Shown in pieces: positions 1 to 47,180 of a DNA stretch of 64,000 nt. Where the stretch lies: assembly GCA_016188385.1 (NCBI GenBank), contig JACPHV010000032.1:5174-69173 (forward strand), in the 5' to 3' direction. A program made the translations under genes and the position numbers. The notes beneath the pieces are model-generated. The model did no database searches, was not told where the DNA came from, and saw nothing but the letters and a program-made list of their open reading frames with translations. Position 1 is the first letter of the stretch; the number at the start of each line of letters is the position of its first letter. The stretch comes from Candidatus Uhrbacteria bacterium. GTDB taxonomy: Bacteria > Patescibacteriota > Patescibacteriia > JACQRZ01.

Positions 1-55
1 GGCTTACACCCTGTCATTTGACAGTGCGCCATGCGGCTTTGAAGGCGCAGGTGAT

Positions 56-2185
56 GTGGTGAAAGAAAATGGTTTTGTTGTCGATAACAGAGTGCCTCGC
101 ATTGTATTCGACAAAATAATCAAATCTCTTCCAGAAGAGAAGAAAAGATACTTGCCATTTCGCTATCATCTAAAGATTAACAAGGTTCAACAAAAGGGCT
201 GGAATCTGTGCGTATTGGAAGTGTATGATCCTTGGGGCGTGAGAAACTACAAACATTTTTTTCTGGAACCAAAAAAACCGGAACCACCAAAGGTTGACAT
301 TTGGATGGAGGGGCAGGAAACCAAGAAAGAGAAAGAAGAAATCCGTGTCGGTCCAGACTCTACGGTAAAAGTTAGGTGGCAGACACAGAATGCAGAGAGG
401 ATTGAATTCCGATTTGGTTCACCAGAAATGCGTTTAAAGTGGTTTCCATATGAAGATGAGTGTAGTATTGGTGCGGGTTTTGTTATGGAAAAAACTGCAT
501 ATTGCTCGGAATTTAGTAAAGACCGTGAACGCAACCGTGAACAGAGGCTCCGTGAATTTTTAAAAGCAGCACAGGAATGGGAAGATGAGACAATGAAGAA
601 TGCCCAAGAAAAATTTGGCGTTAGATATGATGATCCATTAGTGAGACGAGGCCTCTGGTTTCAGAGGTCGGCGCTTTTACAACAGTTTCCTCCACAGGTC
701 ATTGATGATATAGAGAAACGTTTCGTTGACAGGGGTTCAATAGAAATTAACAGCGGCATGTCAGGCAGGGAAGTGTCGATTTATGCGTATAACAATGTAT
801 CATCGAAAGATCCTAAGGATATACAAGAGGCATCAAATAGGATAGAGATCAAAGTTGTTCCGCTTAGAAATATAGTTCTCATTTCAAAAGTGGTTGGCCC
901 AAGCGATCTTCAGATACAAGCTTCTGGCGAAGGTATTTATGAATCAACTATGTTATGCGCCACATCATGGCCAAGGAGCGGATGTGACTTCACAGCCGAA
1001 AGTACAAAGAAATACTGGCATGGAAAAGATAGTATTTCATGGACCATTAGCGATGTAGATATGGGCGATACTTTGGTAGATTTTTGGTTTAAAGGTGTTG
1101 ACGAGGCGGGACATGTAAAAGAAGAGTATCGGCGAGCAACCATTAAAGGAGGTGATCTCGTTCAGTGTGTTGTAAGTGGTTTTGATGAACATTTTAGTAA
1201 ATTAACGATCGGTTATAATGAAAGTCTTTATGCAGTTGGAGACTATACTCCCACTGATGTTAGCAAAGGAGTAGACGAAGCCAAGAAACTCGTCGGAAAT
1301 TCTTCTACATCACAGAATCTTGGAATGTGTTTATATAGGTTAAATGGACAAGGTTTAGAATCAGTATCATGTTTCATAAAAGAAATAATGACAGCTATAG
1401 AGAAGGGCGCAAAAAAATGTAAAGGCGATACGGCAAACGCGATTGCATTTGGAGTGAGTATAGGCGGGATATTTTCTGAACCTATTCCTGGTATTAGAAT
1501 ATCATTAGCTGGACTTATCGTGGGGAGTCTTTCAAAAAAGACCGACGAGCCAGATTTTTTTTGGACATGGATTTTTACCGCCGGGATCGTCATAGTATCT
1601 GGTATAATGTATAAAATATTAAAGTTAGATTTCCTTATTAATGAATTTAAAAAAATGATAATAGACGCGTTACAAATATTAAGTGTTTCTTTTGATATAG
1701 AAAAAAAGTTAAAAAAAGGTGTAATAAATACAATAATAGAGCAAGCCAATGGGATTCCTGCAACTGGCGGTCCTAATCCAAAAACAATACTCCCAGAGCT
1801 AATTCCTAACTATAGCCTTGTTCGCTGTACGGAAAAAGGAACATGTGATCAAGGTTTGATGGATTTTCAAAAAAAAGGGATGGGTGATGTGAGTAATTTA
1901 GTCACTTCAGCGGGGAAACTTTCAGTAGGGCTGGGATGGCCATGTGATACTTTCGAAAAGTGCTCCTCCAACGCATTACAAATAGCTTGCGCTATTAAAG
2001 GAAAAACGATTACGAGAGACAATGCGTTAGCCAAAATAAAGAGTAGTAGCGTCGGCAGCATAGGGAATGTCAAAACCCCTGCCTGGAAAATTATTCATTT
2101 TAGTGCGCTAGTGGTAAAGGATACGAGATATATGACAGAATCACAAGCAGGCACAATCGTGTCTGAAGCAGGTGGCTGTCCTTAG
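56..2185 (+). CDS. Hypothetical 709-aa Cys-rich protein with two central TM helices (GTG start); AT-rich island
   Basis: Long ORF with no recognisable family motifs. Hydrophobic stretches AIAFGVSIGGIF...LAGLIVGSL and FFWTWIFTAGIVIVSGIMY, followed by a Cys-rich C-terminal ~160 aa. Base composition is clearly more AT-rich than the housekeeping regions. Confidence 0.5.
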   Translation: MVKENGFVVDNRVPRIVFDKIIKSLPEEKKRYLPFRYHLKINKVQQKGWNLCVLEVYDPWGVRNYKHFFLEPKKPEPPKVDIWMEGQETKKEKEEIRVGPDSTVKVRWQTQNAERIEFRFGSPEMRLKWFPYEDECSIGAGFVMEKTAYCSEFSKDRERNREQRLREFLKAAQEWEDETMKNAQEKFGVRYDDPLVRRGLWFQRSALLQQFPPQVIDDIEKRFVDRGSIEINSGMSGREVSIYAYNNVSSKDPKDIQEASNRIEIKVVPLRNIVLISKVVGPSDLQIQASGEGIYESTMLCATSWPRSGCDFTAESTKKYWHGKDSISWTISDVDMGDTLVDFWFKGVDEAGHVKEEYRRATIKGGDLVQCVVSGFDEHFSKLTIGYNESLYAVGDYTPTDVSKGVDEAKKLVGNSSTSQNLGMCLYRLNGQGLESVSCFIKEIMTAIEKGAKKCKGDTANAIAFGVSIGGIFSEPIPGIRISLAGLIVGSLSKKTDEPDFFWTWIFTAGIVIVSGIMYKILKLDFLINEFKKMIIDALQILSVSFDIEKKLKKGVINTIIEQANGIPATGGPNPKTILPELIPNYSLVRCTEKGTCDQGLMDFQKKGMGDVSNLVTSAGKLSVGLGWPCDTFEKCSSNALQIACAIKGKTITRDNALAKIKSSSVGSIGNVKTPAWKIIHFSALVVKDTRYMTESQAGTIVSEAGGCP

Positions 2186-2193
2186 AAAACACT

Positions 2194-2799
2194 ATGTTCA
2201 AGTCGTTAGAATCAAAAAAAATCGTAACCGGTATTCTAATCCTTTTTTTTGTTTTAATCATATTTGTAGTATTTGTTCGCCTGAGGATTGGCATACTTTT
2301 TACCAAAGAAGCTACAACACATAAGACAATTGTTAATTTATCAGGTTGGAAAAAGACTTATATTAATTTTAATGCCGGGATAAAAGTCAACTTACCGAAG
2401 GAAATGATTGTTGAAGATTCGTTCTATTCGGAATCGTTACCTTATGTTGATTTTATTACACCGGATTATTCATCTCACATAGAAATGACGCGATGGAGTA
2501 AAGAAGATTTTTTAGAAGACGATTTTTTAAATCTCGAAGAATATTTTACATTTCGCAAAGACTTCAACCAGTCAGCAGGTTTTTGGATCACCGGAGAAAA
2601 GCTAAAGGTAGATGGCAATACTGCCTATTTCATGCAAACGCAAATCGCAAAAAATACGCAAAAGGAATCACAATTACTCATCGAAAAAGAACCTTATATT
2701 TATCGTTTCCGGCTTATTGAGTTTCAGGGAGATACGCCTAATAGCAAAATCTTACAACAAGCGCTCCGATCAATAAAACTTACGGATCCGCCAAAGTAA
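2194..2799 (+). CDS. Hypothetical N-terminally membrane-anchored protein (201 aa)
   Basis: N-terminal TM segment ILILFFVLIIFVVFV followed by a soluble domain. AT-rich. Tightly follows ORF 56..2185 after an 8-nt gap. Confidence 0.45.
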   Translation: MFKSLESKKIVTGILILFFVLIIFVVFVRLRIGILFTKEATTHKTIVNLSGWKKTYINFNAGIKVNLPKEMIVEDSFYSESLPYVDFITPDYSSHIEMTRWSKEDFLEDDFLNLEEYFTFRKDFNQSAGFWITGEKLKVDGNTAYFMQTQIAKNTQKESQLLIEKEPYIYRFRLIEFQGDTPNSKILQQALRSIKLTDPPK

Positions 2800-2822
2800 T
2801 AATAACTATCAACAATGTCTTT

Positions 2823-3131
2823 ATGTTAACCACTACTCTCTCGATTCTGCTTATCTTTACTATGATTCTGTGGTCGTGGGTGCAAGCGAGGATCTATAAG
2901 ACAATTAAGGAGAGGCACCCGGCTGAATATGAAAAGTTGGAACATCCTCGATTCTGGAAAATGTGGAATCCTGGATATACGGCAATTCTCTATGGGACCA
3001 TAAAATTTCCCGATGACCCTGCTCTTAGAGGGGTCATCATAGGCTTCAGGATTTTATCTGTCATTCTCGTCATCATGATGCTTACTTTTGCGGGCATAAA
3101 TTTCTTTGAAGCTTCGATAAATCTCAAATAA
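2823..3131 (+). CDS. Small two-TM membrane protein (102 aa)
   Basis: Two hydrophobic helices (LSILLIFTMILWSWV; IIGFRILSVILVIMMLTFAGI); same AT-rich block. Confidence 0.4.
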   Translation: MLTTTLSILLIFTMILWSWVQARIYKTIKERHPAEYEKLEHPRFWKMWNPGYTAILYGTIKFPDDPALRGVIIGFRILSVILVIMMLTFAGINFFEASINLK

Positions 3132-3149
3132 CATGAGCCAGTACTTACT

Positions 3150-5387
3150 ATGACCACACACAAAAATTATATCGGCGCTGTAAAAATAATGTTGGCAGGA
3201 TTTGTGCTGGCAATAATGGGAGCTCCACTTTCTATTGTTCATGCACAAAAAGAAAAAATTGATGATTGGCAATTCACCCCGCAGTCATATACCAGTGTTT
3301 TCACATTGAATCTCCCGCCCTTTCCTGAATACTGGTATGCGTATGTTGTTCTTGTGTTAGCCTTTGTTTTGTGTCTGATCCCAATTGGAATCTTTTTTCA
3401 TGGCTTGTATCTCTTTTTTAGCAGCATTCGCGATAAAGAATACCGTTCAAGAGGGACGCATAAAATCGCGCTTGGTATATCTCCAGTCGTTGCTATATCC
3501 GCGCTCATCCTTTTTATTTTTCTCCTTACTGGAGGATCTCTGAACGCGCGAATGCTGTTTGTAGCGCTGAATCTCTTTTTTCTAACCTCGTTTATTGGCA
3601 GTATCGTGCTCTTGATAAGAGGCATCTATGTATGGATCAGATATCGAGCATTGGTTGATTGGAAAAAATGCGGGAGGATGAAAACATTTTTTGCCGTATA
3701 CAGCATTATCATTATTCTTGCCTTATGGAATGTTGTTTATTATTCGGCAAAAAGCGTGGTGTCATTTCCCGCAAACAGAACAGGATCCGTATCATTTGAT
3801 TCATCAGTTGGAAACGTACAATATTTTAATACTAGCCAGGCGCCACCGCCAGCAGCAGATACCTCCATCGGTCTATCCGTAGGAGGAGCAAAGGACATAG
3901 ATAATTTTCGAAAAAATATCAAAAATAATTATCTTCCGATTCCAACCGATGTGACGCATGAAGGATTGTTCTATGACTACTTGTTTGACACGGGTATCCA
4001 AAAACCCTGCGAAAAACTTTTCTGCCCATCATATTCGACTGCCGTATCCAAAGATCCCTTTTCCGGTGAGCAGAAGTATTTCCTTTCCATTGGCTTGAAT
4101 TCCGGCGTCCAACAAAAAGATTTTGCGCGGCGAAAGACCAATTTTCTTGTTGTCTTAGATATTTCAGGTTCCATGGGTGAGCAGTTTAACCGTTATTATT
4201 ACGACCGTTTCGGGCAGAAACAATCTGTTTTCGATAATCAACAGGATGAAGGAAAAACGAAAATGGAAATAGCGGCCGAGTCTATCAATGACATGCTTGG
4301 GCATCTCACGGGCGATGACAGCTTCGGCATGGCACTTTTTGATGACATATCGTATGTCGCAAAACCATTGCGCAAAGTTTCTGAAACAGATATGGAACGC
4401 ATCAAAAAACATATCAGCGAACTCAAGCCACAAGGGGGGACGAATATGTCAGCTGGCATGCAAGAGGCGCTCTGGCAATTTGAGGCATATAGAGGCACAG
4501 AAGATCCTGATTTTGAAAACCGCGTTATCTTTCTAACCGATGCGATGCCGAATACGGGCGATACTACTGAAGAAGGCATGTTTGGCATCGCAAAAAGGCT
4601 GGCAGAACAGAAGATTTATACAACATTTGTCGGAGTTGACTTTAACACCGAGTTGATTGAGTCAATTTCCAAGATTCGCGGCGCAAATTATTACTCCGTG
4701 CATTCTGCGAAAGAATTCAAGAAGCGCATGGATGAGGGATTTGACTCTATGGTTACACCACTCGTGTTTAATCTCAATCTTGAAATCATCGCCCCCGGCT
4801 TTCAGATAGAAAAAGTCTACGGTTCGCCAGAAGCAGACGAAACAACCGGTGAGATCATGAAAGTAAATACGCTATTCCCTTCAGAGCAGACCGAGGGGGA
4901 GACACGCGGCGGATTGGTGCTTCTCCAGCTGAAACGATTTGCTGATGACGCTACTGCCATAATGCTCAGGGCAAAGTATGAAAGTAGGCAAGGAGATATT
5001 CAGCAGTCAGATGAAATGGCATTCTTCAAGGAAGTGGAAGAGTATTATGATAATTTCGGCATTCGAAAAGGGATTGTGCTCGCGCGGTATGCAAATATCT
5101 TGCGTGATTGGATGTTTTATGAACGCGCACAAGGCACAGAGGAAGAACGCAAAATAGTGCGACCAGCCTCGCCAGTTGAGTATTATGATGTTGAGGGAAT
5201 ACCCATTGTATCTCCAGAGTTTACACTTGGAAAATGGGAACGGCAGTCGCAGGTTCTCCGCGTATCGGATACTTACAAAAATATTTTTACGGATTTTATC
5301 CCTTACATGATTACGGAGACGGAGGCTATTGGCGATCAAGCACTCCAGAAAGAGCTTGATGTCTTGGGGACGATCTTGAGTAAATAA
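3150..5387 (+). CDS. Multi-TM membrane protein with a von Willebrand factor A (VWA) domain
   Basis: Signal/TM helices in the first ~200 aa. MIDAS motif: DISGSMGEQ (DxSxS) plus downstream GGTNMSAGM and FLTDAMPNTGDT. Confidence 0.7.
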   Translation: MTTHKNYIGAVKIMLAGFVLAIMGAPLSIVHAQKEKIDDWQFTPQSYTSVFTLNLPPFPEYWYAYVVLVLAFVLCLIPIGIFFHGLYLFFSSIRDKEYRSRGTHKIALGISPVVAISALILFIFLLTGGSLNARMLFVALNLFFLTSFIGSIVLLIRGIYVWIRYRALVDWKKCGRMKTFFAVYSIIIILALWNVVYYSAKSVVSFPANRTGSVSFDSSVGNVQYFNTSQAPPPAADTSIGLSVGGAKDIDNFRKNIKNNYLPIPTDVTHEGLFYDYLFDTGIQKPCEKLFCPSYSTAVSKDPFSGEQKYFLSIGLNSGVQQKDFARRKTNFLVVLDISGSMGEQFNRYYYDRFGQKQSVFDNQQDEGKTKMEIAAESINDMLGHLTGDDSFGMALFDDISYVAKPLRKVSETDMERIKKHISELKPQGGTNMSAGMQEALWQFEAYRGTEDPDFENRVIFLTDAMPNTGDTTEEGMFGIAKRLAEQKIYTTFVGVDFNTELIESISKIRGANYYSVHSAKEFKKRMDEGFDSMVTPLVFNLNLEIIAPGFQIEKVYGSPEADETTGEIMKVNTLFPSEQTEGETRGGLVLLQLKRFADDATAIMLRAKYESRQGDIQQSDEMAFFKEVEEYYDNFGIRKGIVLARYANILRDWMFYERAQGTEEERKIVRPASPVEYYDVEGIPIVSPEFTLGKWERQSQVLRVSDTYKNIFTDFIPYMITETEAIGDQALQKELDVLGTILSK

Positions 5388-5521: not shown

Positions 5522-6388
5522 ATGATTTATTCCATTGTTCGTCTTTTTCTCATCGCGTTTTTCATGGCAGGCGTTTTCTCTGCGTCAATGGTCTCCGCGG
5601 CGTCGCTTTCAAGCCGCCTTTCAGGACGCATTCTGCTTCAGGTGGAAGACAAGGGGAAAGCATGGTATGTTGATCCATCAACCAAAGATCGCGCATATCT
5701 TGGCAGGCCCGCAGATGCGTTCCGCGCGATGAGAGAGTTGGGCCTCGGCATTACGAATGCGGACCTTGACCGCATCGTGGTATCGGATGACGGGAAATCC
5801 GGAGACACAAAATTTGCGCGGAAACTCGCGGGAAAAATTGTTCTGCAAGTTCAGTCAAAAGGCGAGGCATGGTATGTCAATCCCGTAGATCTGAAACGTT
5901 ATTATCTCGGCCGCCCCGCGGACGCGTTTTCCATTATGCGCGAGCTTGGTCTTGGCGTCTCAAACAAAGATATTGAGAAGATATCCGTAAAATCAGGATA
6001 TCAAGATCTTGGACAAATATCTTCTGGAATTCAAACGCAAGTTCAAGCACAGCCACCATCACCGTCATTGCCATCCGATCAAATACAGGATCAAACACCT
6101 GCGGTTGTTTTGGAAGATACAAAAGAAGGCCCGACAGAACCTCAAACAGAATCGACTCCAACATCAAAGCCTGAAGTAGAATCTGTTACACAGGAGACTC
6201 AAATACAGGGGCAGGAAAGTACATCATCAACATCGACTTCAGATCAGATACATGAACAAGTAGAGGAAGCCGCGCCAACAAAGTCGGAGGCTGAAACAGA
6301 AAAAGATCGATATAACAAGGCGATTGAAGACCGTTATAAAAACGAAGCGATATTCAGGTCACTTGATTTTGGAACAGGTATTTGGTAG
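5522..6388 (+). CDS. Secreted protein with two tandem ~55-aa repeats (G+IxLQVxxKGEAWYVxP...R.YLGRPADAF..MRELGLGI.N.DL..I) and a Q/P/T/S/E-rich tail
   Basis: N-terminal signal peptide MIYSIVRLFLIAFFMAGVFSASMVSAAS. Two near-identical repeats are visible in the translation. Low-complexity C-terminus. Confidence 0.6.
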   Translation: MIYSIVRLFLIAFFMAGVFSASMVSAASLSSRLSGRILLQVEDKGKAWYVDPSTKDRAYLGRPADAFRAMRELGLGITNADLDRIVVSDDGKSGDTKFARKLAGKIVLQVQSKGEAWYVNPVDLKRYYLGRPADAFSIMRELGLGVSNKDIEKISVKSGYQDLGQISSGIQTQVQAQPPSPSLPSDQIQDQTPAVVLEDTKEGPTEPQTESTPTSKPEVESVTQETQIQGQESTSSTSTSDQIHEQVEEAAPTKSEAETEKDRYNKAIEDRYKNEAIFRSLDFGTGIW

Positions 6389-6576: not shown

Positions 6577-7005
6577 ATGCACCATGCCACTATTCAAGGA
6601 CATCAAGTAATTTGTTCCGCTTTTATTGAAAAGAGGGGTTTGTTTCTTGTAGTATTTGATCCGGGTTTTCATGTATGGCGTGTCCCCGGAGGCAGAGCCG
6701 AATGGGGGGAAACAGTCGAGGAAACGTTATTGAGAGAAATGAAAGAGGAGACGGGTGTTCTATTTGACCAACCACGCTTTCTTGGTTTCGGACAAGATCA
6801 GCAATTTCATATTGCTGACAACAAGGAAACTTCCCGTTTCGTGCTGTATTTTTATGTAAAAACAGATCAAGAAATACATCTTGACCCCCTCGAGGCATCT
6901 GATCATCGATGGGTTTCGTTTGAAGAACTCGGGAGATTGGATAACGCTGAAGGCGCGCTTGCTGACTTATTCCGGCGATTTCCGAACTGTAAGACTGTTG
7001 AATAG
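6577..7005 (+). CDS. NUDIX hydrolase
   Basis: Nudix box GGRAEWGETVEETLLREMKEETGV (GX5EX7REUXEEXGU). Confidence 0.75.
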   Translation: MHHATIQGHQVICSAFIEKRGLFLVVFDPGFHVWRVPGGRAEWGETVEETLLREMKEETGVLFDQPRFLGFGQDQQFHIADNKETSRFVLYFYVKTDQEIHLDPLEASDHRWVSFEELGRLDNAEGALADLFRRFPNCKTVE

Positions 7006-7086
7006 CGCTCGTTTTTCCACAGTGGCAAAATTGACATACGTTGGTCAGAACTTTATGCTATCCTTTTATGAATATACGAAATATCA

Positions 7087-7476
7087 ATGAAGCGCATTCA
7101 GCAAATCGCCAAGGAGAATTTTTTAATTTGGAACCAGTCGTTGTCATCGGGAGATCCTAAGAACGTGGCAGCTCTTTATTCTCGTGACTGTACTTTTCTG
7201 CCGACTTTGTCAGAGGATTTTAAAATAGGCAGAGCGGCGGCACAGCAATATTTCAGCCGCTTTCTAAAAATGCATCCCAACGGAACTATCAGTAATGATC
7301 GGGTCGAACAGCTTGGTGATGGCAGTTATCTGCATTGCGGGTTTTATGATTTTGAGCTCGACGGTAAAAAGGGGAGAGAGGTCGCGCACGCAAGGTTCAC
7401 CTTTATCTGGAAGCTCAACGACAATCATGAGTGGAGGATATTCCACCATCATTCATCAATGCATCCTCACGAATAA
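7087..7476 (+). CDS. NTF2-like/SnoaL-like (DUF4440-type) small protein
   Basis: Size and N-terminal pattern (IWNQSLSSGDPKNVAALYSRDCTFLP) are typical of the NTF2-fold family; weak. Confidence 0.35.
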   Translation: MKRIQQIAKENFLIWNQSLSSGDPKNVAALYSRDCTFLPTLSEDFKIGRAAAQQYFSRFLKMHPNGTISNDRVEQLGDGSYLHCGFYDFELDGKKGREVAHARFTFIWKLNDNHEWRIFHHHSSMHPHE

Positions 7477-7551
7477 AAAAGATATCATTCAATCAGTGAA
7501 ACAAAATGGAAACTTTGTTTTCTCTAATGTTTTTTTGCGAGCTTATACTCT

Positions 7552-8274
7552 ATGCCAGAACAACCAAAACCGCGGGAAATGCGATATGATCCGGAAACGG
7601 AACGAAAAATGTACCTTGTTGCAATGTTTGAAAAAGGTTTGTCTGATACACAAGGTACGATCGGATATCACGCAACCAGCATTGAATCAATCCAATACCT
7701 TATCAGGACAGGTCATTTGCCTGGCTCGCAATCAGAGGAATTGCCTGGTGCGCACAATGCATGGCGTATGCAAAAAGGAGACTTGTATTTTTATCCTCGG
7801 AAATCCAAATTTCCCGACTATGACCCTAATGTGAGCAAATACTTTCTTGATGAGGGCGGTGTCATCGTTGCTGTATCAGATTATGCTCATCGAATCGCAA
7901 GCGTACATTATCTTTTGACGAAATTGAATCTTGGTTTGGAAAATCAAGACTACAACAACGGTGCTCGTGAATTGTTGAGCGGTATGTTTATCAGCGAAAT
8001 TCGAGAATTCCGTGAAACACTTTATTCCCTTGACATCAGCGATGCGCAGATAGGTCAAGCTCTCAAAGAGGCGAAGGAACGCAAAGGAATCATATTAGGT
8101 CTTGGCGTTTCGCTGCTAAAAACACATCAGGTAAGAGATGGCGACAGGAACGCCGGTGATCTCCGCATTAATTTTCCTTCAGGGATGGACTACACGTACA
8201 TTTCGGGCGTTGAATCGTTTGGAAAGCACGAGCGGGAATTTTTTTCTGACATTAAAAAAAGTTTGTCTCGGTGA
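7552..8274 (+). CDS. Hypothetical protein (240 aa)
   Basis: Long ORF with no recognised motifs. Confidence 0.4.
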   Translation: MPEQPKPREMRYDPETERKMYLVAMFEKGLSDTQGTIGYHATSIESIQYLIRTGHLPGSQSEELPGAHNAWRMQKGDLYFYPRKSKFPDYDPNVSKYFLDEGGVIVAVSDYAHRIASVHYLLTKLNLGLENQDYNNGARELLSGMFISEIREFRETLYSLDISDAQIGQALKEAKERKGIILGLGVSLLKTHQVRDGDRNAGDLRINFPSGMDYTYISGVESFGKHEREFFSDIKKSLSR

Positions 8275-8303
8275 CACGCACCATCCGCGCATAAGCTGCA
8301 GAC

Positions 8304-8801
8304 TCAAAGCGCAGTCACTTTATAAAGGCGGGTGGACTTGTCTATAAATAACGTCCCATTGAGGTGATCAGTCTCGTGCTGAAGCACGCGCGCGAGCAGC
8401 CCTGTGCCCTTTATCGTGTGCGTTTGGCCATTTCTATCCTGGTATTCCGCCGTAACTGACATATATCGTCTCACAGGACCAAAAATGCCGGGGACGGAAA
8501 GACACCCCTCTTCATGCGCCTCTTTTCGGAATGAATGGCGAATGATTCTGGGGTTGATTAACACCGTACCTTCACGACTTTCTTTCTTGTATTCTTCGTA
8601 GCGGTCGGGATCCGGTACGATAACCGCAAGACGCAAAGAGTAATTTACTTGTGGCGCAGCAAGTCCGATACCGTCGCGCTCATACATAGTCGGGATCATG
8701 TCATCTATCAATTTTTGCAGCGCCGGATCATCGAATCGCGTAATCATGTCCGCGCCTCGACGCAATACCGGGTGGTCTGTGCGCACAAGCGGAAGAATCA
8801 T
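8304..8801 (-). CDS. def: Peptide deformylase
   Basis: Motifs GIGLAAPQV, EGCLSVPG and HETDHLNG (the HExxH metal site). Confidence 0.9.
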   Translation of the reverse strand: MILPLVRTDHPVLRRGADMITRFDDPALQKLIDDMIPTMYERDGIGLAAPQVNYSLRLAVIVPDPDRYEEYKKESREGTVLINPRIIRHSFRKEAHEEGCLSVPGIFGPVRRYMSVTAEYQDRNGQTHTIKGTGLLARVLQHETDHLNGTLFIDKSTRLYKVTAL

Positions 8802-10675
8802 AGCGGATCAATATCATGCATAAAGCCATTCGGAAGCGAACGGAGAGTCTTGAGAAGCTCATCCGGCAAAAGATGCGATGGATGATAACTCATCTCAACC
8901 GTTATGACAAGCTCTTTGACATCTCTATTCTTTCTTTTCACTGCTATCTCGTTGATAGATATGCGCGGGCTCGTTGATTTTTGTACAATTGCCTCAAGCC
9001 GCGATTTTACTTCAGCGAACATTTCTTTCGTTACTTGTGCCCTGGAGGATTGAAATACGCGGATAATTCTTACATACGGCGGCTGCTTGCACTCTTTGCG
9101 CGCGACAAGCTCGTCTCGCGCGAATGTTTCAAAATCCATCTTTGCCAGTGTTTGAATAAACCGTGAATGCGGACGGAATGATTGAATAACGATATCCGCC
9201 TCCAAAGAAGCGGCAAGGCTCATGCAAGCAGCCGATGCTTGCCATTGACGTTCACACGCTCGTACGTCTTCCATCGATAGTACGGGGTCAGCGGCAACGA
9301 ACGCGAGCAAGCCAAAAGGAGAATGTGTTTGAACAGTATCGAGAAAGGAATACGCAGTTCCAATGGTAATGGAAAAAACTTCCCGTGACTGTTTGTTCAA
9401 CTTTGATGCCTCTCCGACTGATGAACGCGGAAACTGTTTTTTTATATAGGAGATAATCTTTTCTCTGCCAATGCCAGGGAATTTGTATTCGGATCCTTTG
9501 CACTGCGGGCATACCGCAGGCAGCTGTTGTGAAACGGAACAGGCGGAACATTCAAGGCAGGCGGTAGTCTGTGAATATCTCGGAAGGCGATCGCATGATA
9601 CGCAAGGGAACAGATAGGAACAGCTCGCGCACATAACTAAGCGGCTGTAGCCGCTGCCACGTACTACGAGATACGTTTTTTTTTGTTCTCGAATCGTTTG
9701 TTCTATCCGCGCGATAAGATGGTCGCTGATAAATGAATAATTTTCATTTCTCAATTCGTCGGTGAGGTTTACGACTGACGCATGGATCTGCGCGGGAATT
9801 TCTTGGCTTAAAAAAAATTGATTTCGCTGATGCCATTCCTCGAGGCGAGGCGCCGTGCTCGAAAAGCAGATTTGTGCGTTTTCGATAGATGCTTTTGCAA
9901 CCGCGACGATGCGGCCATCCACGCGAGGGTTGGAGTCATATTGTTTATGCTCGATACGTTCGGAATCATGCATGATCACATATCCCAGTGATGAACACGG
10001 CGCAAACACAAGCATTCTCGTCCCGATGCCTACGAGCGCGGTTCCATCCCGAAGCGCTTGCGCGTTTTTGCGGAATGCGGGCTTTCCAAGAGCGCTATGC
10101 ACAATCGCGAGACGCTCTCGAGTAATGCTTTGTGATAATTCGCGCGCGAGCTGATACACACTCGCAATCGTTGGACATAGGATGAGCGTTTGCATTCCTG
10201 CGATCGTATATTCTTGTATCGTCCGCCGATAATATTCGATGCGCTCGTCGCGGGAAGGCGAGTACGACAACACGGGTTGGAGGTTATTCGATCGTTTGTA
10301 ATCCGATTCCGCAGAACGCAACGAGTGAACATGCTCATCTTTGGCAATCCCGTATGTTCCGTACAGAAAAGGCGCCATCTGCAGCGCAGCCGCGTTCGGA
10401 GAAACCGCGTACCACGACGAGAGCCATTTGATCAGTTGCAGATCTTGGTATGAAATCGCGCATTTCGGTGGCATTACTTGTGTAATAGGCTTGAGCGCGC
10501 GCTGATCGCTCTCATGTATGTAATATACAATTCCCATCGTCTTTCTGTTGCGCAGCAATACCTCAACGATACCGCCTTCGCGTATTGTATTCTCGGCATC
10601 CGAAGGAATTGAATAATCAAAACCCTCCAGATGGGAGGGAAGACGTGTCAGAGGGATGATATACGCAGCTTTCAT
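8798..10675 (-). CDS. priA: Primosomal protein N' (PriA) homolog with degenerate Walker A/DExH motifs
   Basis: PriA-like N-terminus. HDSERIEHKQYDSNPRVDGRIVAV aligns to the PriA DEEHDSSYKQ...RDLAV block. The Cys-rich zinc region is CASCSY...CVSC...CLECSAC...CPQC. The canonical GSGKT position reads SRDER. Confidence 0.7.
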   Translation of the reverse strand: MKAAYIIPLTRLPSHLEGFDYSIPSDAENTIREGGIVEVLLRNRKTMGIVYYIHESDQRALKPITQVMPPKCAISYQDLQLIKWLSSWYAVSPNAAALQMAPFLYGTYGIAKDEHVHSLRSAESDYKRSNNLQPVLSYSPSRDERIEYYRRTIQEYTIAGMQTLILCPTIASVYQLARELSQSITRERLAIVHSALGKPAFRKNAQALRDGTALVGIGTRMLVFAPCSSLGYVIMHDSERIEHKQYDSNPRVDGRIVAVAKASIENAQICFSSTAPRLEEWHQRNQFFLSQEIPAQIHASVVNLTDELRNENYSFISDHLIARIEQTIREQKKTYLVVRGSGYSRLVMCASCSYLFPCVSCDRLPRYSQTTACLECSACSVSQQLPAVCPQCKGSEYKFPGIGREKIISYIKKQFPRSSVGEASKLNKQSREVFSITIGTAYSFLDTVQTHSPFGLLAFVAADPVLSMEDVRACERQWQASAACMSLAASLEADIVIQSFRPHSRFIQTLAKMDFETFARDELVARKECKQPPYVRIIRVFQSSRAQVTKEMFAEVKSRLEAIVQKSTSPRISINEIAVKRKNRDVKELVITVEMSYHPSHLLPDELLKTLRSLPNGFMHDIDPL

Positions 10676-10687
10676 TCCGTAATTACT

Positions 10688-11485
10688 TTATTCGAGGGAA
10701 TAATCCATGATGATATGCCCGACGCCGAACGGATTTTCATAAGATATGAATTTCGTCCGGTGTTGCATCGGCGTGATAATGCCCCAAAATAGGGCAAATG
10801 AAGGAAGTCCGCAGGCTCCGATTTCGTTGTAGCTTTCTGCCGGAAGATCTACCACCTTTTTTTCTCGTTTGCCCTTTATCCATTTTACGATTTGCTGTTC
10901 AAGCTCTACTCCTGTCGGATTGAATGGCAGAGGAGCATCGTGGGATAGGCAGTGTGCAAGGTCTCCTGACGCAAGACAGATGATTCGCTTTTCCGACTCT
11001 TGTAGTATTTTTTGGAACTGTTTACCATCCTCAAACAGAGCTGATAGTTGTTTTGTAGCAGGATGCACGACAAGTATTTTGCATCCGAGCCCTTTGGCTA
11101 GATATTCCAATGGTACTCCAACGCTGTATTCGAGCTTTTCGGAACCGGAATATGTGACCGCGATCCCTTCCTGAACCAGTTTGTCCTTGAGGCGGTCCGC
11201 CAAAATGGGATCAGGAGTGTACTCCGATCGCGCGGTAAGCTCGCCGAATTGTTCAAATGTCGCGCGATAGACAGGAGGGATATGAAATAGATATGAACTT
11301 TCATTGCGAGCCGTCTCATCGTGCGGGGCGATGACGATAAGAGTGTCGGGCTTGTATTCAAGTATTCTGCCGCGAATTTTTCCAAGGGCGGCAATGGTGC
11401 CATCCAGCTTGCCAACCGTCTTTTCTTTTACATGCGGGAGGAGTACGGGTGAATGCGGCACAATGCTTCCGTATACGAGCGTCAT
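10688..11485 (-). CDS. LigB-type (class III) extradiol dioxygenase / DODA-Memo-like family protein
   Basis: N-terminal VYGSIVPHSPVLLP and LIVIAPHD resemble the YgiD/LigB family HGSP...VVVSAHW pattern. Confidence 0.45.
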   Translation of the reverse strand: MTLVYGSIVPHSPVLLPHVKEKTVGKLDGTIAALGKIRGRILEYKPDTLIVIAPHDETARNESSYLFHIPPVYRATFEQFGELTARSEYTPDPILADRLKDKLVQEGIAVTYSGSEKLEYSVGVPLEYLAKGLGCKILVVHPATKQLSALFEDGKQFQKILQESEKRIICLASGDLAHCLSHDAPLPFNPTGVELEQQIVKWIKGKREKKVVDLPAESYNEIGACGLPSFALFWGIITPMQHRTKFISYENPFGVGHIIMDYSLE

Positions 11486-12918
11486 AGAGTTGCGTTTTTT
11501 CTTACTCCTAATACTGTCGTTGTCACCGGAGGCGTATATTCCTGATCGACAATGGTGCCAAGATCAACGGGGTTTCCTTCTTCATGCAAATCAAGCGTTC
11601 TGCCATTGGATCGTACGATCTGTCCCCATTGAAATCCAAGCGAGATAAATGCGTCCGCTGATAAGAATGGCCGCTTTTGCCCGTTTGAGATAATATAGAC
11701 CGTATGCGTCGCGGGGGTCGTGACGAGCGTGCCGTCATCGAATAGTACCGGAGCCCCATCAGGGAGTTTCTTCAACTCATGATCTTCCATGGGTGTAATG
11801 GAACGGTGTGCGAAATTCGCTTTGAGAACCGCTTTTTCCAGAATTGGCCTTTTTTTGCCGTTCTGCACATAGTATACCGCGCCTGTTCCGCGATGCTGTA
11901 TGAGATTTCCCATTGGATTGTCATCCGGCGCTTTGATATATCCGGCAAGAGGGATATCGATAAGATCGGCATCAGCGGCTTGTATGAGCTCTTCTGCTCG
12001 AAAACCGATTTTGCGAAAGATATCTTTCGATGCAATGCCATACCGTGTGTCATCGACATGGAGGAACACGGCGCCATTTGTTGCTTGCAACAGCGCATAC
12101 TGCGGGAATTTTACGGGAGCGCCCATGTCATAAGCATCAAGGGACGTTTGGTCTACATTCACAATGTTTTGTTCATCATACCTCGAGCGAAATACGCCGA
12201 TAGAGGAGAACAGGCGTCGTTTTCCGTTTTGAATGAGCCATACGTCAGGGTTGCTGGTTGATTTTACAATCATGCCGTCAGGAAATACTTTCGCGAAGTA
12301 TCGATTCCAGATTTTCCAAAAGCTGAAATTTCCGCGAAGATGAGGAGTGTAATTATAGAGCACTGCGGTTGCCCAATTGTTTGGAGTAATCGGATAGCCG
12401 TCAACCATCTGCATCTCGCCCGGATGAAAACGAAATTTCTGCGGTTCAAGCGTGTAATATTTTTTTCTCCACGCGGCTTTCTCAATTTGCGAGACGAATC
12501 CCTTATACGCGGCAACGATTGGGTCTGTTGCGGAGCATGAATCGCATCGAGCATACCCGGTTGCCCAATCAAAACTGTATTGACTCGGTTTTTTATTTTC
12601 GATAAGGCTTTGTTCCTTTTGAAGCAGTACGAGCAGTACTTTCGGGCTTATTCCGTGAGTCTTGGAGGCGCGCCAAATAATATCCGCAGCTCGTTTTGTG
12701 ACTCCGTCAATATCACGCGCAGTGTATGTCGCCAGCGCTGATTCTCGGCGTTCTAAAAATCGCTGGATGCTATCCGCGTCCATCGAGTTTGCATCAAAGA
12801 ATTCCTCATCAGAGAGAATCGCATTGGGTTGAAACGTAAGCGCAAAAGTCGTCTGCGCAGGAAGCAGAAACGAAAAAATGAGGATACCGATAATAATATG
12901 TCGTGCGATACGTTTCAT
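11482..12918 (-). CDS. Secreted protein with four degenerate ~50-aa repeats (aromatic-V-x-NGxKRxF...F..GF)
   Basis: Signal peptide MKRIARHIIIGILIFSFLLPAQTTFA. Repeats are DVWLIQNGKRRLF, GAVFLHVDDTRYGIA, GAVYYVQNGKKRPIL and HTVYIISNGQKRPFL. Confidence 0.55.
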   Translation of the reverse strand: MKRIARHIIIGILIFSFLLPAQTTFALTFQPNAILSDEEFFDANSMDADSIQRFLERRESALATYTARDIDGVTKRAADIIWRASKTHGISPKVLLVLLQKEQSLIENKKPSQYSFDWATGYARCDSCSATDPIVAAYKGFVSQIEKAAWRKKYYTLEPQKFRFHPGEMQMVDGYPITPNNWATAVLYNYTPHLRGNFSFWKIWNRYFAKVFPDGMIVKSTSNPDVWLIQNGKRRLFSSIGVFRSRYDEQNIVNVDQTSLDAYDMGAPVKFPQYALLQATNGAVFLHVDDTRYGIASKDIFRKIGFRAEELIQAADADLIDIPLAGYIKAPDDNPMGNLIQHRGTGAVYYVQNGKKRPILEKAVLKANFAHRSITPMEDHELKKLPDGAPVLFDDGTLVTTPATHTVYIISNGQKRPFLSADAFISLGFQWGQIVRSNGRTLDLHEEGNPVDLGTIVDQEYTPPVTTTVLGVRKNATL

Positions 12919-24118: not shown

Positions 24119-24193
24119 GGCCTCATCGTCTAGTGGTTAGGACGACAGGTTCTCATCCTGTAAACCGGGGTTCGATTCCCCGTGGGGCTACCA
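24119..24193 (+). tRNA. tRNA-Glu (anticodon CUC), CCA encoded
   Basis: Cloverleaf folded by hand. Acceptor stem GGCCTCA/TGGGGCT, anticodon stem ACAGG/CCTGT with loop TTCTCAT, T-arm CGGGGTTCGATTCCCCG, then discriminator A + CCA. Confidence 0.8.
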
Positions 24194-24218
24194 GTACAAA
24201 GAGTATGTTCTTGATGGC

Positions 24219-24884
24219 ATGAAACAACTCATAACAATTTTTTTACTCTTTATTGCGGGAGGAGCTCTTCTGTTTTCAAATAATATGTTCGGATTTTTTG
24301 ACAAAAACTCACAGTCGGCTGAAGAAAAATTTTGGAAGTGGTTTGTGGCAAATGAACAGATGCTATTTTCATTTCAAGAAAATCAGGATCAGGTTTTTGA
24401 TATGCTCACCAGTGAATTATCCAAAGTGAACAAAAATCTCACGTTTGAATTCGGTCCGGTCCGTGAGCAGAAGCGAGAATTTGTCATCAGCGCTGGAGGT
24501 ATTCGTGACACGTTTCCTTTTGTTGAACGTCTGGCTACACAAGCTCCGCCATTGGAAAAGTGGAAAATCACAAAATTTCGACCGCGGAGACCCCTTTCTG
24601 ATACCGTGATTGATTTTAAGGGGAAAACTTTTTCTCCGGACGATATATTCTTCAAGCTACACGATAGAGACGGGAAGATTGGCATTCAACTTTTTATCAA
24701 AGGGTACAATGAAGATAAAGATGTATTTGACGAACTCGTTTTTATTTTTTTGGACGCGGCGCTTGGAGAATATGACGTGGAGACAAAAGTCGCTTCCATT
24801 GATTTTTTTGACACCGATACCAGCGATTTTGCCAATGCAAAGCCCATGACTGAACTTGCAACCGACTTTGACGCAATGCAGTAA
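24219..24884 (+). CDS. Hypothetical secreted/membrane-anchored protein (221 aa)
   Basis: N-terminal hydrophobic segment LITIFLLFIAGGALLF; no family motif recognised. Confidence 0.45.
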   Translation: MKQLITIFLLFIAGGALLFSNNMFGFFDKNSQSAEEKFWKWFVANEQMLFSFQENQDQVFDMLTSELSKVNKNLTFEFGPVREQKREFVISAGGIRDTFPFVERLATQAPPLEKWKITKFRPRRPLSDTVIDFKGKTFSPDDIFFKLHDRDGKIGIQLFIKGYNEDKDVFDELVFIFLDAALGEYDVETKVASIDFFDTDTSDFANAKPMTELATDFDAMQ

Positions 24885-44760: not shown

Positions 44761-44834
44761 TGCGGGATCGTCTAACGGCAGGACCCGTGACTCTGAATCA
44801 CGTTATCCAGGTTCGAATCCTGGTCCCGCAGCCA
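44761..44834 (+). tRNA. tRNA-Gln (anticodon CUG), CCA encoded; U1:A72 first pair
   Basis: Acceptor TGCGGGA/TCCCGCA; anticodon stem CGTGA/TCACG with loop CTCTGAA; T-arm CCAGGTTCGAATCCTGG; discriminator G + CCA. Starts 1 nt after the dnaX TGA stop. Confidence 0.8.
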
Positions 44835-44946
44835 ACAAGGATAAAATTGAAAGGTTGCCTCGCGGCTTCGCCGCTCGGCATTGAATTCAGCGAGGATATG
44901 CCATGTTAATTTTTCAGTTTTACTCAATCTTTCCGAAAAAATTGAT

Positions 44947-45537: not shown

Positions 45538-45652
45538 CGTGCATAACTCTTCCATATGAGCTTTGCATGAACAAGAGAAAAGACACCTGACCCATTTCTC
45601 CAGGTTGAAGGGAAGGAGAATGAACAAGAAAAAAACTTAGTAAAATATCATA

Positions 45653-46675: not shown

Positions 46676-46682
46676 ACATGAT

Positions 46683-46985: not shown

Positions 46986-47180
46986 TTTTGGATTCTGCCA
47001 CCGAATTTACGACAAATTCCAGCCCGAAACCTGCCAGCATTCCTCCGCAGAGCCCCAGTATGCATAGAAGAAGTGTTCTATACCAATTATGACCCAAGTA
47101 AAATTAGTCCCAACGTGCAAAAATCTATTGCGGAATATAAAGATCGCGATGGGAGTTGGCAGTTGATAGGAAAATAAATT

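What the first reader, a model, noticed from the sequence alone, without database searches (positions are those of the whole stretch)
1..3131. AT-rich compositional island at the window edge encoding a 709-aa Cys-rich two-TM protein and two small membrane proteins
Nucleotide composition over 56-3131 is visibly AT-richer; sampled 60-nt lines give roughly 20-40% GC against 45-57% in the housekeeping regions. The three ORFs are packed with 8- and 23-nt gaps and none shows a recognisable family motif. ORF1 has a large soluble N-terminal region, a two-helix membrane hairpin and a Cys-rich C-terminal domain (CTEKGTCDQG...GWPCDTFEKCSS...CAIKG). ORF2 is a single-pass membrane protein and ORF3 a 2-TM peptide. 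This architecture is reminiscent of toxin/effector plus immunity-type or membrane-sensor cassettes. It is directly followed by a multi-TM VWA protein. It is likely horizontally acquired and may extend upstream of the window.
Basis: partly seen in the sequence, partly recalled or inferred. Interest (0 to 1): 0.6.

Follow-up and report, generated by a model that had tools for sequence, protein, structure and literature searches.

The report
Orphan exported surface-protein island, Uhrbacteria
The AT-rich block at the window edge is a real, probably laterally acquired cluster of cell-envelope genes in a Candidatus Uhrbacteria genome; its main gene is cut by the window edge and belongs to a very rare, uncharacterised family of exported, cysteine-rich membrane-anchored proteins that elsewhere always sit just downstream of a secreted tail-fibre-like protein.

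Summary
The compositional anomaly is real. Bases 1-3131 have 38.9% GC against 47.4% for the window. This is the strongest tetranucleotide outlier in 64 kb (L1 distance 0.41 against 0.18±0.03). The anomaly fades gradually to about 8.3 kb and does not stop at 3131.

"ORF1, 709 aa" is an edge artefact. The frame is open to base 2. The real product is a 907-aa protein (NCBI HYV71_03630, Candidatus Uhrbacteria) with an N-terminal signal peptide.

An exhaustive HMMER scan of 1.84 billion cluster representatives found only three relatives. Context searches added three more. No Pfam, NCBIfam, PHROG, PADLOC or PDB match exists.

All members share:
- a signal peptide;
- a conserved, Cys-bearing, β-rich N-terminal region of about 300 aa;
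- a Gly/Ala-rich hydrophobic hairpin;
- one of three mutually unalignable C-terminal tails.

In all five relatives where the upstream gene is visible, that gene is a tail-fibre-like protein; the two whose N-terminus is visible carry signal peptides. Downstream genes change with tail type; ORF2 and ORF3 follow the tail type found in the window.

My best reading is a membrane-anchored partner of a surface fibre, used for cell attachment. A polymorphic effector plus immunity reading is not excluded. The gene upstream of the window could not be retrieved, and both structure predictions failed.

The parts
1..2185 (+). 3' 80% (residues 181-907) of a 907-aa exported, Cys-rich protein (P0001, NCBI HYV71_03630). 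The 5' 540 nt, which encode the signal peptide and the start of the conserved N-domain, lie upstream of the window.
   Evidence: The frame is open to base 2. There is a 100% match to the 907-aa P0001. Only three relatives exist among 1.84e9 cluster representatives. No Pfam, NCBIfam, PHROG, PADLOC or PDB hit.
2..421 (+). End of the family-defining N-terminal β-rich region (residues 181-320). It includes invariant Cys191 and Cys250 and an Ig-like module.
   Evidence: Alignments A1, A4 and A5 give invariant columns C37, C50, C95, C100, C191 and C250. Secondary structure is β-rich, but the AF2 models are of low confidence.
524..736 (+). Charged helical insert (residues about 355-425), present only in this family member.
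   Evidence: This stretch is a gap in all other members in alignment A1. AF2 predicts helices, at low confidence.
1424..1627 (+). Gly/Ala-rich hydrophobic hairpin (residues 655-722). The first arm is weak. A Pro-Ile-Pro-Gly turn follows, then a strong second arm, FFWTWIFTAGIVIVSGIMY.
   Evidence: Translation and Kyte-Doolittle scan. An equivalent low-charge Gly/Ala stretch occurs in all members.
1799..2185 (+). Type-A C-terminal tail with 6 Cys (Cx5C, Cx5C, Cx8C, terminal GGCP). It is shared only with P0002.
   Evidence: Translation. A7 alignment with P0002. No similarity to type B or type C tails.
2194..2799 (+). ORF2 (HYV71_03635), 201 aa. It has an N-terminal membrane anchor and an extracytoplasmic domain with weak PsbP-like similarity.
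   Evidence: One hydrophobic segment at residues 10-28. PsbP_2 PF18933 E=1.3e-5, 25.8 bits against a cut-off of 27, covering 3-164 of 184 profile positions. It is a singleton 90% cluster. It is unrelated to the ~165-aa partners in other loci.
2823..3131 (+). ORF3 (HYV71_03640), 102 aa, with two hydrophobic segments.
   Evidence: Hydropathy. No family match in any library. Singleton cluster.
3150..5387 (+). Multi-pass membrane protein with an extracytoplasmic VWA domain (HYV71 VWA domain-containing protein, 745 aa). It starts 18 nt after ORF3.
   Evidence: VWA_2 at 36.8 bits and VWA at 31.3 bits, both above their cut-offs. TM segments. A DISGS MIDAS-type motif is visible in the translation.
5522..6388 (+). 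Secreted 288-aa protein with a signal peptide, two ~60-aa repeats and a low-complexity tail. It still lies inside the compositionally atypical block.
   Evidence: Translation, hydropathy, no Pfam hit, composition.
6577..8274 (+). Remainder of the atypical-composition block: a NUDIX hydrolase (6577-7005), a SnoaL/CaMKII_AD-like protein (7087-7476) and an unknown 240-aa protein (7552-8274). The block ends at the convergent junction with def (8304-8801, minus strand).
   Evidence: Pfam. GC 0.436-0.451 against about 0.49 in the core genes. The tetranucleotide signal returns to normal in the 7001-10000 bin.

Best explanation
Bases 1 to about 8274 are the visible part of an accessory, laterally acquired cell-envelope gene cluster in a Candidatus Uhrbacteria (CPR/Patescibacteria) genome.

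Its lead gene is cut by the window edge and encodes a 907-aa protein. That protein is exported by a Sec-type signal peptide. It carries disulfide-bonded β-sandwich-rich ectodomains and is held in the membrane by a Gly/Ala-rich hydrophobic hairpin. After the hairpin it displays a second, Cys-rich α-helical tail on the outside.

The protein belongs to a very rare family. Elsewhere, that family's gene always lies directly downstream of a secreted collagen/tail-fibre-like protein. I therefore infer that it is the membrane-embedded partner (anchor or co-adhesin) of a surface fibre used for cell-to-cell attachment. I also infer that the variable tail contacts tail-type-specific exported or membrane partners encoded just downstream. 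Here those are ORF2 and ORF3, possibly together with the VWA membrane protein.

Shown: export signal, family rarity, domain layout, conserved gene linkage, atypical composition.
Inferred: topology, the fibre-anchor role, partner binding, and that a fibre gene lies upstream in this genome.
For: Composition:
- GC 0.389 against 0.474, GC3 0.33-0.34 against about 0.50, and the strongest tetranucleotide outlier in the window.

Gene identity and rarity:
- The product is the 907-aa HYV71_03630 with N-terminus MRNKRTKTIFVLALLSAHIVVFVFPL.
- There are three relatives among 1.84e9 cluster representatives, plus L005, L007 and a paralogue in L003.

Extracytoplasmic location:
- Cys content is 2.0-2.75% against 0.87% in the other window proteins.
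- All six complete members have an even number of Cys. In this protein and its closest relative P0002, Cys residues lie on both sides of the hairpin in even numbers.
- In type B members a Pro-rich linker (PPIPPPSWTPPSCPSC) follows the hairpin, as expected for an external wall-spanning segment.

Linkage to a fibre gene:
- In L002, L003, L004, L005 and L007 the gene directly upstream is a tail-fibre-like protein. These proteins share one conserved C-terminal domain at 41-62% identity.
- L005's fibre protein hits PHROG tail-fibre families and Pfam Collagen.
- The two fibre proteins whose N-termini are visible both begin with signal peptides.

Surroundings:
- The gene products from ORF1 through the 288-aa protein (to 6388) are membrane or secreted proteins, tightly spaced on one strand.
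- Downstream genes differ with tail type.
Against: - The gene upstream of the window could not be retrieved.
- A search with the fibre C-terminal domain returned no Uhrbacteria HYV71 protein. That search scores only 8000 word-sharing candidates and listed only proteins of 574 aa or fewer, so the absence is weak evidence.
- No fibre gene or ~500/~165-aa partner homologue occurs in the 64-kb window.
- Both AlphaFold models were of low confidence (pLDDT 38 and 45). The fold search gave nothing at E<=1e-3, so no structural support exists.
- The first hairpin arm is only weakly hydrophobic here. The closest relative, P0002, has no segment reaching KD 1.4 in this region. Constitutive membrane anchoring is therefore not certain.
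- Gene adjacency does not prove physical interaction.
Confidence: 0.42

Rival explanations
1. Sec-exported polymorphic effector with cognate immunity or partner genes. In this reading the conserved N-terminal scaffold positions the protein, perhaps with the fibre. The hydrophobic helical hairpin, embedded in an α-helical C-terminal region, inserts into a target membrane in the manner of colicin or diphtheria-T-domain hairpins. The variable tail is the active module. ORF2 and ORF3 would be membrane-located immunity proteins.
For: - The N-terminal region (~300 aa in all members, ~500 aa within the P0003/P0004/L005/L007 subfamily) is conserved, but there are three tail types that BLAST and hhalign cannot align. 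P0004 and P0003 are 50% identical over about 500 aa and then diverge completely.
- Downstream genes co-vary with tail type.
- Residues 563-907 are predicted all-α around a Gly/Ala-rich hairpin. That hairpin is only moderately hydrophobic in P0002.
- ORF2 and ORF3 are small membrane proteins starting 8 and 23 nt after the preceding stop codons.
- Sec-dependent polymorphic toxins with signal peptides, and tail-fibre repeats as the filamentous part, are described in PMC3482391.
Against: - No known toxin, pre-toxin, HINT or protease, or immunity domain was found in Pfam, NCBIfam or PADLOC.
- No orphan tail cassettes or further copies occur in the window.
- In type B loci the downstream genes are exported proteins of about 500 aa and about 165 aa, unlike typical immunity proteins.
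- The secondary-structure argument rests on a pLDDT-38 model.
- Only three tail types have been sampled, and the profiles are very shallow.
Confidence: 0.22
2. Remnant of a prophage or phage-tail-derived module. In this reading the family protein is a tail-associated structural or receptor-binding accessory protein encoded next to the tail fibre, and the AT-rich block is a decayed prophage end.
For: - The upstream neighbours in related loci match PHROG tail-fibre families. Some homologues of their C-terminal domain carry Peptidase_S74 (PF13884).
- The L005 family member matches phrog_2155, 'virion structural protein', over one Ig-like module at E=3.6e-8.
- In L005 the cassette sits next to a tRNA-Leu, a LAGLIDADG gene and an AbiEii gene.
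- The composition in the window is atypical.
Against: - Both the family proteins and the fibre proteins have signal peptides, which virion proteins normally lack.
- No capsid, terminase, portal, tape-measure or integrase gene was seen in the ORFs of L003, L004, L005 and L007 or window 1-24 kb that were scanned; the L005 housekeeping flank was judged from its translations only.
- No relative of the family or of the fibre C-terminal domain was found in IMG/VR or in INPHARED phage genomes.
Confidence: 0.08
3. Nothing functionally coherent. In this reading the cluster is a set of unrelated, fast-evolving lineage-specific envelope genes. Their low GC reflects relaxed selection or AT-biased mutation and biased amino-acid content, not transfer, and the linkage with fibre genes elsewhere is incidental.
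For: - CPR genomes carry many orphan membrane proteins (general knowledge).
- The GC deficit decays gradually and has no sharp edge.
- No mobility genes, tRNA or flanking repeats occur at the block inside the window.
- In L005 the cassette has the same GC as its housekeeping flank.
Against: - Five of five independent loci show the same fibre-then-family gene order, even though sequences have diverged to 21-25% identity.
- The GC3 drop of about 0.17 and a GC-normalised tetranucleotide correlation about 10 SD below the norm are hard to explain by amino-acid content alone.
Confidence: 0.2

Closest known systems
Polymorphic toxin systems exported by the Sec pathway (Zhang, Aravind et al. 2012, PMC3482391)
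   Same: Both have a signal peptide and a conserved N-terminal part with interchangeable C-terminal tails. Both have tightly linked downstream genes that change with the tail. Both are associated with tail-fibre-type filamentous elements.
   Different: No recognised toxin, pre-toxin, processing-protease or immunity domain is present. The fibre is a separate protein and not part of the same polypeptide. No orphan cassettes occur. Partners in other loci are large exported proteins. Membership was tested and not established.
Pore-forming colicin or diphtheria-toxin T-domain type hydrophobic helical hairpins, with small membrane immunity proteins
   Same: Both have an α-helical region surrounding a Gly/Ala-rich hydrophobic hairpin of about 40-70 residues. 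Small membrane proteins are encoded next to the gene.
   Different: No sequence match to the Pfam Colicin family or any related family was found. The helical prediction is of low confidence. In type B members the hairpin follows β-domains directly and is followed by a Pro-rich linker, which resembles a permanent anchor more than an insertion domain.
Phage tail-fibre/collagen-like fibre proteins (PHROG tail-fibre families; Pfam Collagen PF01391; Peptidase_S74 PF13884 in some homologues)
   Same: The invariant upstream neighbour of the family in related loci has collagen repeats, GNVGIGTT-type repeats and PHROG tail-fibre matches.
   Different: This comparison concerns the neighbour, not the window's protein. 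The fibres whose N-termini are visible carry signal peptides and lie among cellular genes. No such fibre gene is visible inside this window.
VWA-domain membrane and surface proteins (Pfam VWA_2 PF13519, VWA PF00092)
   Same: The gene at 3150-5387 passes both Pfam thresholds and has a DxSxS MIDAS-type motif. VWA domains commonly mediate metal-dependent adhesion.
   Different: This applies only to the fourth gene. It has no homologue in the related loci, so it is not part of the conserved cassette.
PsbP/Mog1-like fold proteins (Pfam PsbP_2 PF18933)
   Same: ORF2 aligns to almost the whole profile, positions 3-164 of 184.
   Different: The score of 25.8 bits is below the gathering cut-off of 27. 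There is no PDB sequence match. The assignment is tentative.

Membership tests
Genomic island (laterally acquired block) | Nucleotide composition and codon usage differ from the host genome. | tested here: met
   GC 0.389 against 0.474. GC3 0.33-0.34 against about 0.50. Tetranucleotide L1 distance 0.41 against 0.18±0.03.
Genomic island (laterally acquired block) | Sporadic distribution; absent from related genomes. | tested here: inconclusive
   ORF1 has three relatives among 1.84e9 cluster representatives, and no relative was found in the scans of GTDB species genomes. ORF2 and ORF3 were tested only at the 90% cluster level and against family libraries. Synteny with close Uhrbacteria could not be examined.
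Genomic island (laterally acquired block) | Integrase, tRNA target or flanking direct repeats. | tested here: inconclusive
   None lies at the block inside the window. The upstream border is outside the window and could not be retrieved.
Polymorphic toxin system | Conserved N-terminal part with diverse, recombining C-terminal domains. | tested here: met
   The N-terminal ~300 aa aligns across all members; P0003 and P0004 align over ~500 aa at 50% identity. There are three tail types that BLAST and hhalign cannot align. The profiles are shallow.
Polymorphic toxin system | C-terminal domain belongs to a recognised toxin family or has demonstrable toxicity. | tested here: not met
   No hit in Pfam, NCBIfam, PADLOC, PHROGs or PDB sequences. 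Toxicity itself is not testable here.
Polymorphic toxin system | Cognate immunity gene immediately downstream, co-varying with the toxin domain. | tested here: inconclusive
   Downstream genes do co-vary with tail type, with three types sampled. None matches a known immunity family. Type B partners are exported proteins of about 500 aa and about 165 aa.
Polymorphic toxin system | Orphan toxin/immunity cassettes nearby. | tested here: not met
   tblastn of all family members against the window finds only ORF1 itself.
   In P0001, residues 699-722 reach KD 1.77, while residues 655-688 stay below 1.4. P0002 has no segment reaching 1.4. P0003, L005 and L007 have 65-80 almost uncharged Gly/Ala-rich residues.
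Prophage or phage tail module | Neighbouring hallmark phage genes (capsid, terminase, portal, integrase). | tested here: not met
   None was found in the ORFs of window 1-24 kb or L003-L007 that were scanned with Pfam or PHROGs.
Prophage or phage tail module | Homologues in phage genomes or viral contigs. | tested here: not met
   No relatives were found in IMG/VR for the family or for the fibre C-terminal domain, nor in INPHARED.
VWA domain family (gene 3150-5387) | Pfam score above the gathering threshold, and a MIDAS motif. | tested here: met
   VWA_2 36.8 bits against 27. VWA 31.3 bits against 23.8. DISGS is visible in the translation.
PsbP_2 (PF18933), for ORF2 | Pfam score above the gathering threshold. 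| tested here: not met
   25.8 bits against 27, although the alignment is near full length.
Fibre-linked exported Cys-rich family (defined here: P0001-P0004, L005, L007) | Signal peptide, conserved N-domain with six invariant Cys, hydrophobic hairpin, and a fibre-like gene directly upstream. | tested here: inconclusive
   The first three features are met for the window's protein.

The most novel reading that the evidence does not exclude
The family is the effector of a previously undescribed, Sec-dependent, fibre-guided contact system of ultrasmall (CPR-type) bacteria. In this reading a secreted tail-fibre-like protein binds the partner cell. The adjacent Cys-rich protein then inserts its Gly/Ala-rich hairpin into the partner's membrane and presents one of several interchangeable C-terminal modules. 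The co-varying downstream membrane or exported proteins act as self-protection or as docking factors. That would be a new kind of host-manipulation or antagonism device for episymbionts.
Probability: 0.12. Interest if true: 0.75.

Novelty: new variant of a known kind. Interest (0 to 1): 0.38.

Why it matters
CPR/Patescibacteria are thought to live attached to other cells, yet apart from type IV pili their attachment machinery is largely unknown. A conserved pair made of a secreted tail-fibre-like protein and a membrane-anchored, disulfide-rich partner with swappable C-terminal modules is a concrete candidate for a host-recognition or host-manipulation device, and it can be tested.

On present evidence, though, this is an orphan family of seven sequences (six complete plus one partial paralogue) with no structural or experimental support. 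In this genome only the partner gene is visible. The immediate value is therefore modest. It consists of a corrected gene model, a confirmed compositional island, and a newly noticed gene linkage.

Tried and rejected
**Retrieving the DNA upstream of the window**
- An exact look-up of P0001 found no gene on record.
- Two scans of GTDB species genomes found no relatives.
- ORF3 and the 240-aa protein are not on record.
- ORF2 occurs only on a 1.6-kb Logan contig. That contig equals window 1580-3201 and differs only in its last 30 nt.
- Searching 5.8e9 proteins with the fibre C-terminal domain, to catch the upstream HYV71 gene, gave 111 hits and none from this genome.

**Structure prediction**
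- Full-length AF2 with 4 sequences gave pLDDT 38.
- The N-domain alone gave pLDDT 45.
- Foldseek against the PDB gave only generic Ig-like noise, with nothing at E<=1e-3.

**Family and sequence libraries**
- Pfam, NCBIfam, PHROGs, PADLOC and PDB sequences gave nothing for ORF1 or ORF3.
- PDB hits for ORF2 were artefacts of its TM segment matching RecA fusion chains.

**Other tests**
- ORF2 is not a homologue of the ~165-aa partners (hhalign probability 0.5%).
- Type A, B and C tails show no detectable homology.
- Promoter and terminator scans did not exceed shuffled controls.
- The repeat search found no plausible att-like repeats.
- Phage origin was tested and no support was found.
- I considered a T4SS/VirB2-like reading of the small protein after P0004. 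It rests only on weak matches to Inovirus coat protein B and DUF3852, so I dropped it.

Full report
**1. Observation**

The window averages 47.4% GC. Bases 1-3131 have 38.9%, the lowest of all windows of that size and about 3 SD below the mean. In 300-nt bins the region runs at 0.31-0.43, against about 0.46-0.50 from about 8.1 kb onward within the 10 kb profiled.

The deficit is strongest at third codon positions. GC3 is 0.34 for ORF1 and 0.33 for ORF2, against about 0.50 for the core genes. It is not only a GC effect. The tetranucleotide L1 distance to the rest of the window is 0.41 against 0.18±0.03. The GC-normalised tetranucleotide correlation is 0.53 against 0.89±0.03. The compositional island is therefore real.

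Its right edge is not at 3131. The signal fades gradually through the VWA gene, a secreted repeat protein, a NUDIX gene, a SnoaL-like gene and an unknown 240-aa gene. It reaches background by about 8.3 kb. There the plus-strand block meets the minus-strand core genes: def, priA, a LigB-family gene, an unassigned 477-aa gene and ClpB. Further core genes (WecG, MgsA, MraW, a PBP and a Mur ligase) follow on the plus strand from about 16 kb.

The gaps of 8 and 23 nt, the single hydrophobic segment of ORF2, the two of ORF3 and the multi-pass VWA protein are all as described.

**2. Correction of the gene model**

The frame of ORF1 has no stop codon back to base 2. The tool's '709 aa from GTG 56' is just the first start-like codon in the window.

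The 727 in-window codons are 100% identical to residues 181-907 of a 907-aa NCBI protein. That protein is 'hypothetical protein HYV71_03630 [Candidatus Uhrbacteria bacterium]', on an 82,427-bp contig. ORF2, ORF3 and the VWA gene are the next genes on that contig: MBI2484248.1 to MBI2484250.1, with ORF2 and ORF3 tagged HYV71_03635 and HYV71_03640.

The missing N-terminus, MRNKRTKTIFVLALLSAHIVVFVFPL..., is a typical signal peptide or anchor.

**3. How rare the protein is**

- A word-indexed search of 5.8e9 proteins found only the protein itself.
- An exhaustive HMMER scan of 1.84e9 cluster representatives found three relatives. They are P0002 (799 aa, E=1e-87, 35% identity, full length), P0003 (689 aa) and P0004 (758 aa).
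- Pattern scans added L005 (691 aa, JGI contig).
- Following the neighbouring gene added L007 (699 aa).
- A truncated paralogue sits in L003.
- No relative was found in the scans of GTDB species-representative genomes, IMG/VR or INPHARED phages.
- Pfam, NCBIfam, PHROGs, PADLOC and PDB sequence searches gave nothing for the window's protein.

**4. Anatomy of the family**

The following comes from alignments A1, A4 and A5.

- **N-terminus.** All members have a signal peptide ending in an Ala-x-Ala-like site. A β-rich region of about 270-300 aa follows, with six invariant Cys (C37, C50, C95, C100, C191, C250 in P0001). It ends in an Ig-like module.
- **Middle.** The number of further β modules varies. 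P0001 alone has a charged helical insert at about residues 355-425.
- **Hairpin.** A Gly/Ala-rich, nearly uncharged hydrophobic stretch follows, broken by a Pro/Gly turn.
  - In P0001 this is residues 655-722 (window 1424-1627). Only the second arm is strongly hydrophobic (KD 1.77).
  - P0002 has no segment reaching 1.4.
  - P0003, L005 and L007 have 65-80 almost uncharged residues.
- **Tail.** After the hairpin come three kinds of C-terminal tail.
  - Type A occurs in P0001 and P0002. It has Cx5C...Cx5C...Cx8C motifs and ends in GGCP (window 1799-2185).
  - Type B/B' occurs in P0003 and L005, and in L007 and the L003 paralogue. A Pro-rich linker precedes the tail.
  - Type C occurs in P0004.
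  - BLAST and hhalign detect no similarity between the types. P0003 and P0004 are nonetheless 50% identical over their first ~500 residues. The profiles are shallow, so distant homology is not excluded.
- **Cysteines.** Cys content is 2.0-2.75%, against 0.87% in the other window proteins. All six complete members have an even number of Cys. This fits disulfide-bonded extracytoplasmic domains on both sides of the hairpin.
- **Structure prediction.** Both AlphaFold attempts failed (pLDDT 38 and 45). The fold search was uninformative. The secondary-structure statements (β-rich N-half, all-α residues 563-907) are therefore tentative.

**5. Context in related loci**

In every relative whose upstream DNA is visible (L002, L003, L004, L005, L007), the gene directly upstream encodes a tail-fibre-like protein.

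- It is 2091 aa in L003, 1197 aa in L005, 329 aa in L007 (where a further fibre-like fragment precedes it), and a cut fragment in L002 and L004.
- The proteins carry GNVGIGTT-type repeats. L005 also has a collagen triple-helix stretch.
- All five share a C-terminal domain at 41-62% identity.
- L005's protein matches many PHROG tail-fibre families and Pfam Collagen.
- Both fibre proteins with a visible N-terminus have signal peptides.
- The flanks contain cellular genes, and no phage hallmark genes were seen in the ORFs scanned.
- The fibre C-terminal domain has homologues in Patescibacteria, Omnitrophica and other groups, some with Peptidase_S74. None was found in IMG/VR.

The downstream genes depend on tail type.

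| Tail type | Genes immediately downstream |
|---|---|
| A (this window) | ORF2 and ORF3 |
| B/B' | an exported ~500-aa protein, then (where the contig continues) a membrane-anchored ~165-aa protein |
| C | a small multi-TM protein |

ORF2 is not related to the ~165-aa proteins. The window contains no fibre gene, no second family member and no homologue of the ~500/~165-aa partners.

In L005 the cassette lies beside a tRNA-Leu, a LAGLIDADG gene and an AbiEii gene. There it has the same GC as its flank. The strong compositional deviation is therefore specific to the Uhrbacteria copy, which fits a more recent arrival.

**6. Interpretation**

*What is shown.* The block is compositionally foreign. 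Its lead gene is a truncated view of an exported, Cys-rich protein with a hydrophobic hairpin. That protein belongs to a very rare, undescribed family, and the family is tightly linked to secreted fibre-like proteins.

*What I infer.*
- The protein is held in the membrane by the hairpin, with both ends outside. The Cys pattern and the Pro-rich post-hairpin linker in type B members support this.
- Its conserved N-domain works with the conserved C-terminal domain of the fibre, as an anchor or co-adhesin.
- Its variable tail works with the tail-type-specific exported or membrane proteins downstream.
- In an episymbiotic CPR lineage, the natural role for such a device is attachment to another cell.

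Confidence is about 0.4. The upstream gene in this genome is unseen, and there is no structural support.

These can be Sec-exported and can use tail-fibre repeats (PMC3482391). A Gly/Ala-rich hairpin inside a helical region also recalls pore-forming colicins. Against this reading:
- no toxin or immunity domain was found;
- there are no orphan cassettes;
- the partners in type B loci are large exported proteins.

I give it about 0.2.

*Other readings.* A prophage-remnant reading is weak, at about 0.08. A 'no coherent system, just fast-evolving envelope genes' reading remains possible, at about 0.2.

**7. Novelty and interest**

The family is not covered by any library searched and has not been described, as far as these tools show. 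The fibre-family gene linkage appears to be a new observation.

The general kind is familiar: an accessory island of surface proteins in a CPR genome, with a hypothetical exported protein. The evidence is purely comparative and rests on seven sequences. I rate it a new variant of a known kind, with moderate-to-low interest (0.38). There is about a 12% chance that it represents a new fibre-guided contact system, which would be considerably more interesting.

Noticed in passing
window 44761-47711: This is a second compositional outlier (GC 0.39-0.43; tetranucleotide L1 0.34 for 45001-48000). It starts right after tRNA-Gln (44761-44834). It encodes a His_Phos_1 phosphatase, a 340-aa stand-alone class II aaRS-core-like protein and a NUDIX hydrolase. 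A GC-rich (0.54) PIF1-like helicase follows at 47990-49630. It may be another small island at a tRNA.
   Followed up: partly
window 24119-24884: A low-GC (0.40) 221-aa ORF with no Pfam match lies directly after tRNA-Glu (24119-24193). It interrupts the otherwise GC-normal mraW-PBP-Mur ligase cell-wall cluster.
   Followed up: partly
window 5522-6388: A secreted 288-aa protein has two ~60-aa repeats (GRILLQVEDKGKAWYVDP...RPADAF..MRELGLG) and a Gln/Thr/Ser/Glu-rich tail. It has no Pfam hit. The repeat resembles motifs I have seen in other CPR secreted proteins; that is from memory and was not tested.
   Followed up: no
L003 1-12649 (JGI Ga0172375_10003840): This locus holds two family paralogues with different C-terminal tails: a partial type B' copy at 1-1506 and type C P0004 at 10001-12277. 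Each paralogue is followed by its own partner genes, and a 2091-aa fibre gene lies between the two sets. The arrangement looks like a duplicated cassette with tail replacement.
   Followed up: partly
L005 5416-6237 and 14167-14844 (JGI Ga0209515_10001614): Here the fibre-family cassette is bracketed by a tRNA-Leu, a LAGLIDADG-type ORF whose called start overlaps the tRNA 3' end, and an AbiEii toxin-type nucleotidyltransferase gene. That suggests an accessory or hot-spot location. Even so, the cassette's GC equals that of the flank.
   Followed up: partly
L003 12297-12647: The small protein after type C P0004 has a signal peptide plus two hydrophobic segments. It gives weak matches to Inovirus coat protein B and to DUF3852, which makes it pilin- or VirB2-like in layout. 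The matches are too weak to interpret.
   Followed up: no
L001 = window 1580-3201: An independent Logan assembly of run SRR12113422 is identical to the window up to base 3172. It then shows 7 differences in its last 30 nt, at the start of the VWA gene, where the contig ends. This suggests strain-level variation beginning at the VWA N-terminus.
   Followed up: yes
one search hit list: The conserved C-terminal domain of the fibre proteins (GLDVAEIF...GDVLVV...ALAGRVPVKV...PGDFLT) has no Pfam model. It nevertheless occurs in over 100 proteins from Patescibacteria, Omnitrophica, Zixibacteria, Acidobacteria and a DPANN archaeon. It may be an undescribed, widespread fibre-terminal domain.
   Followed up: partly
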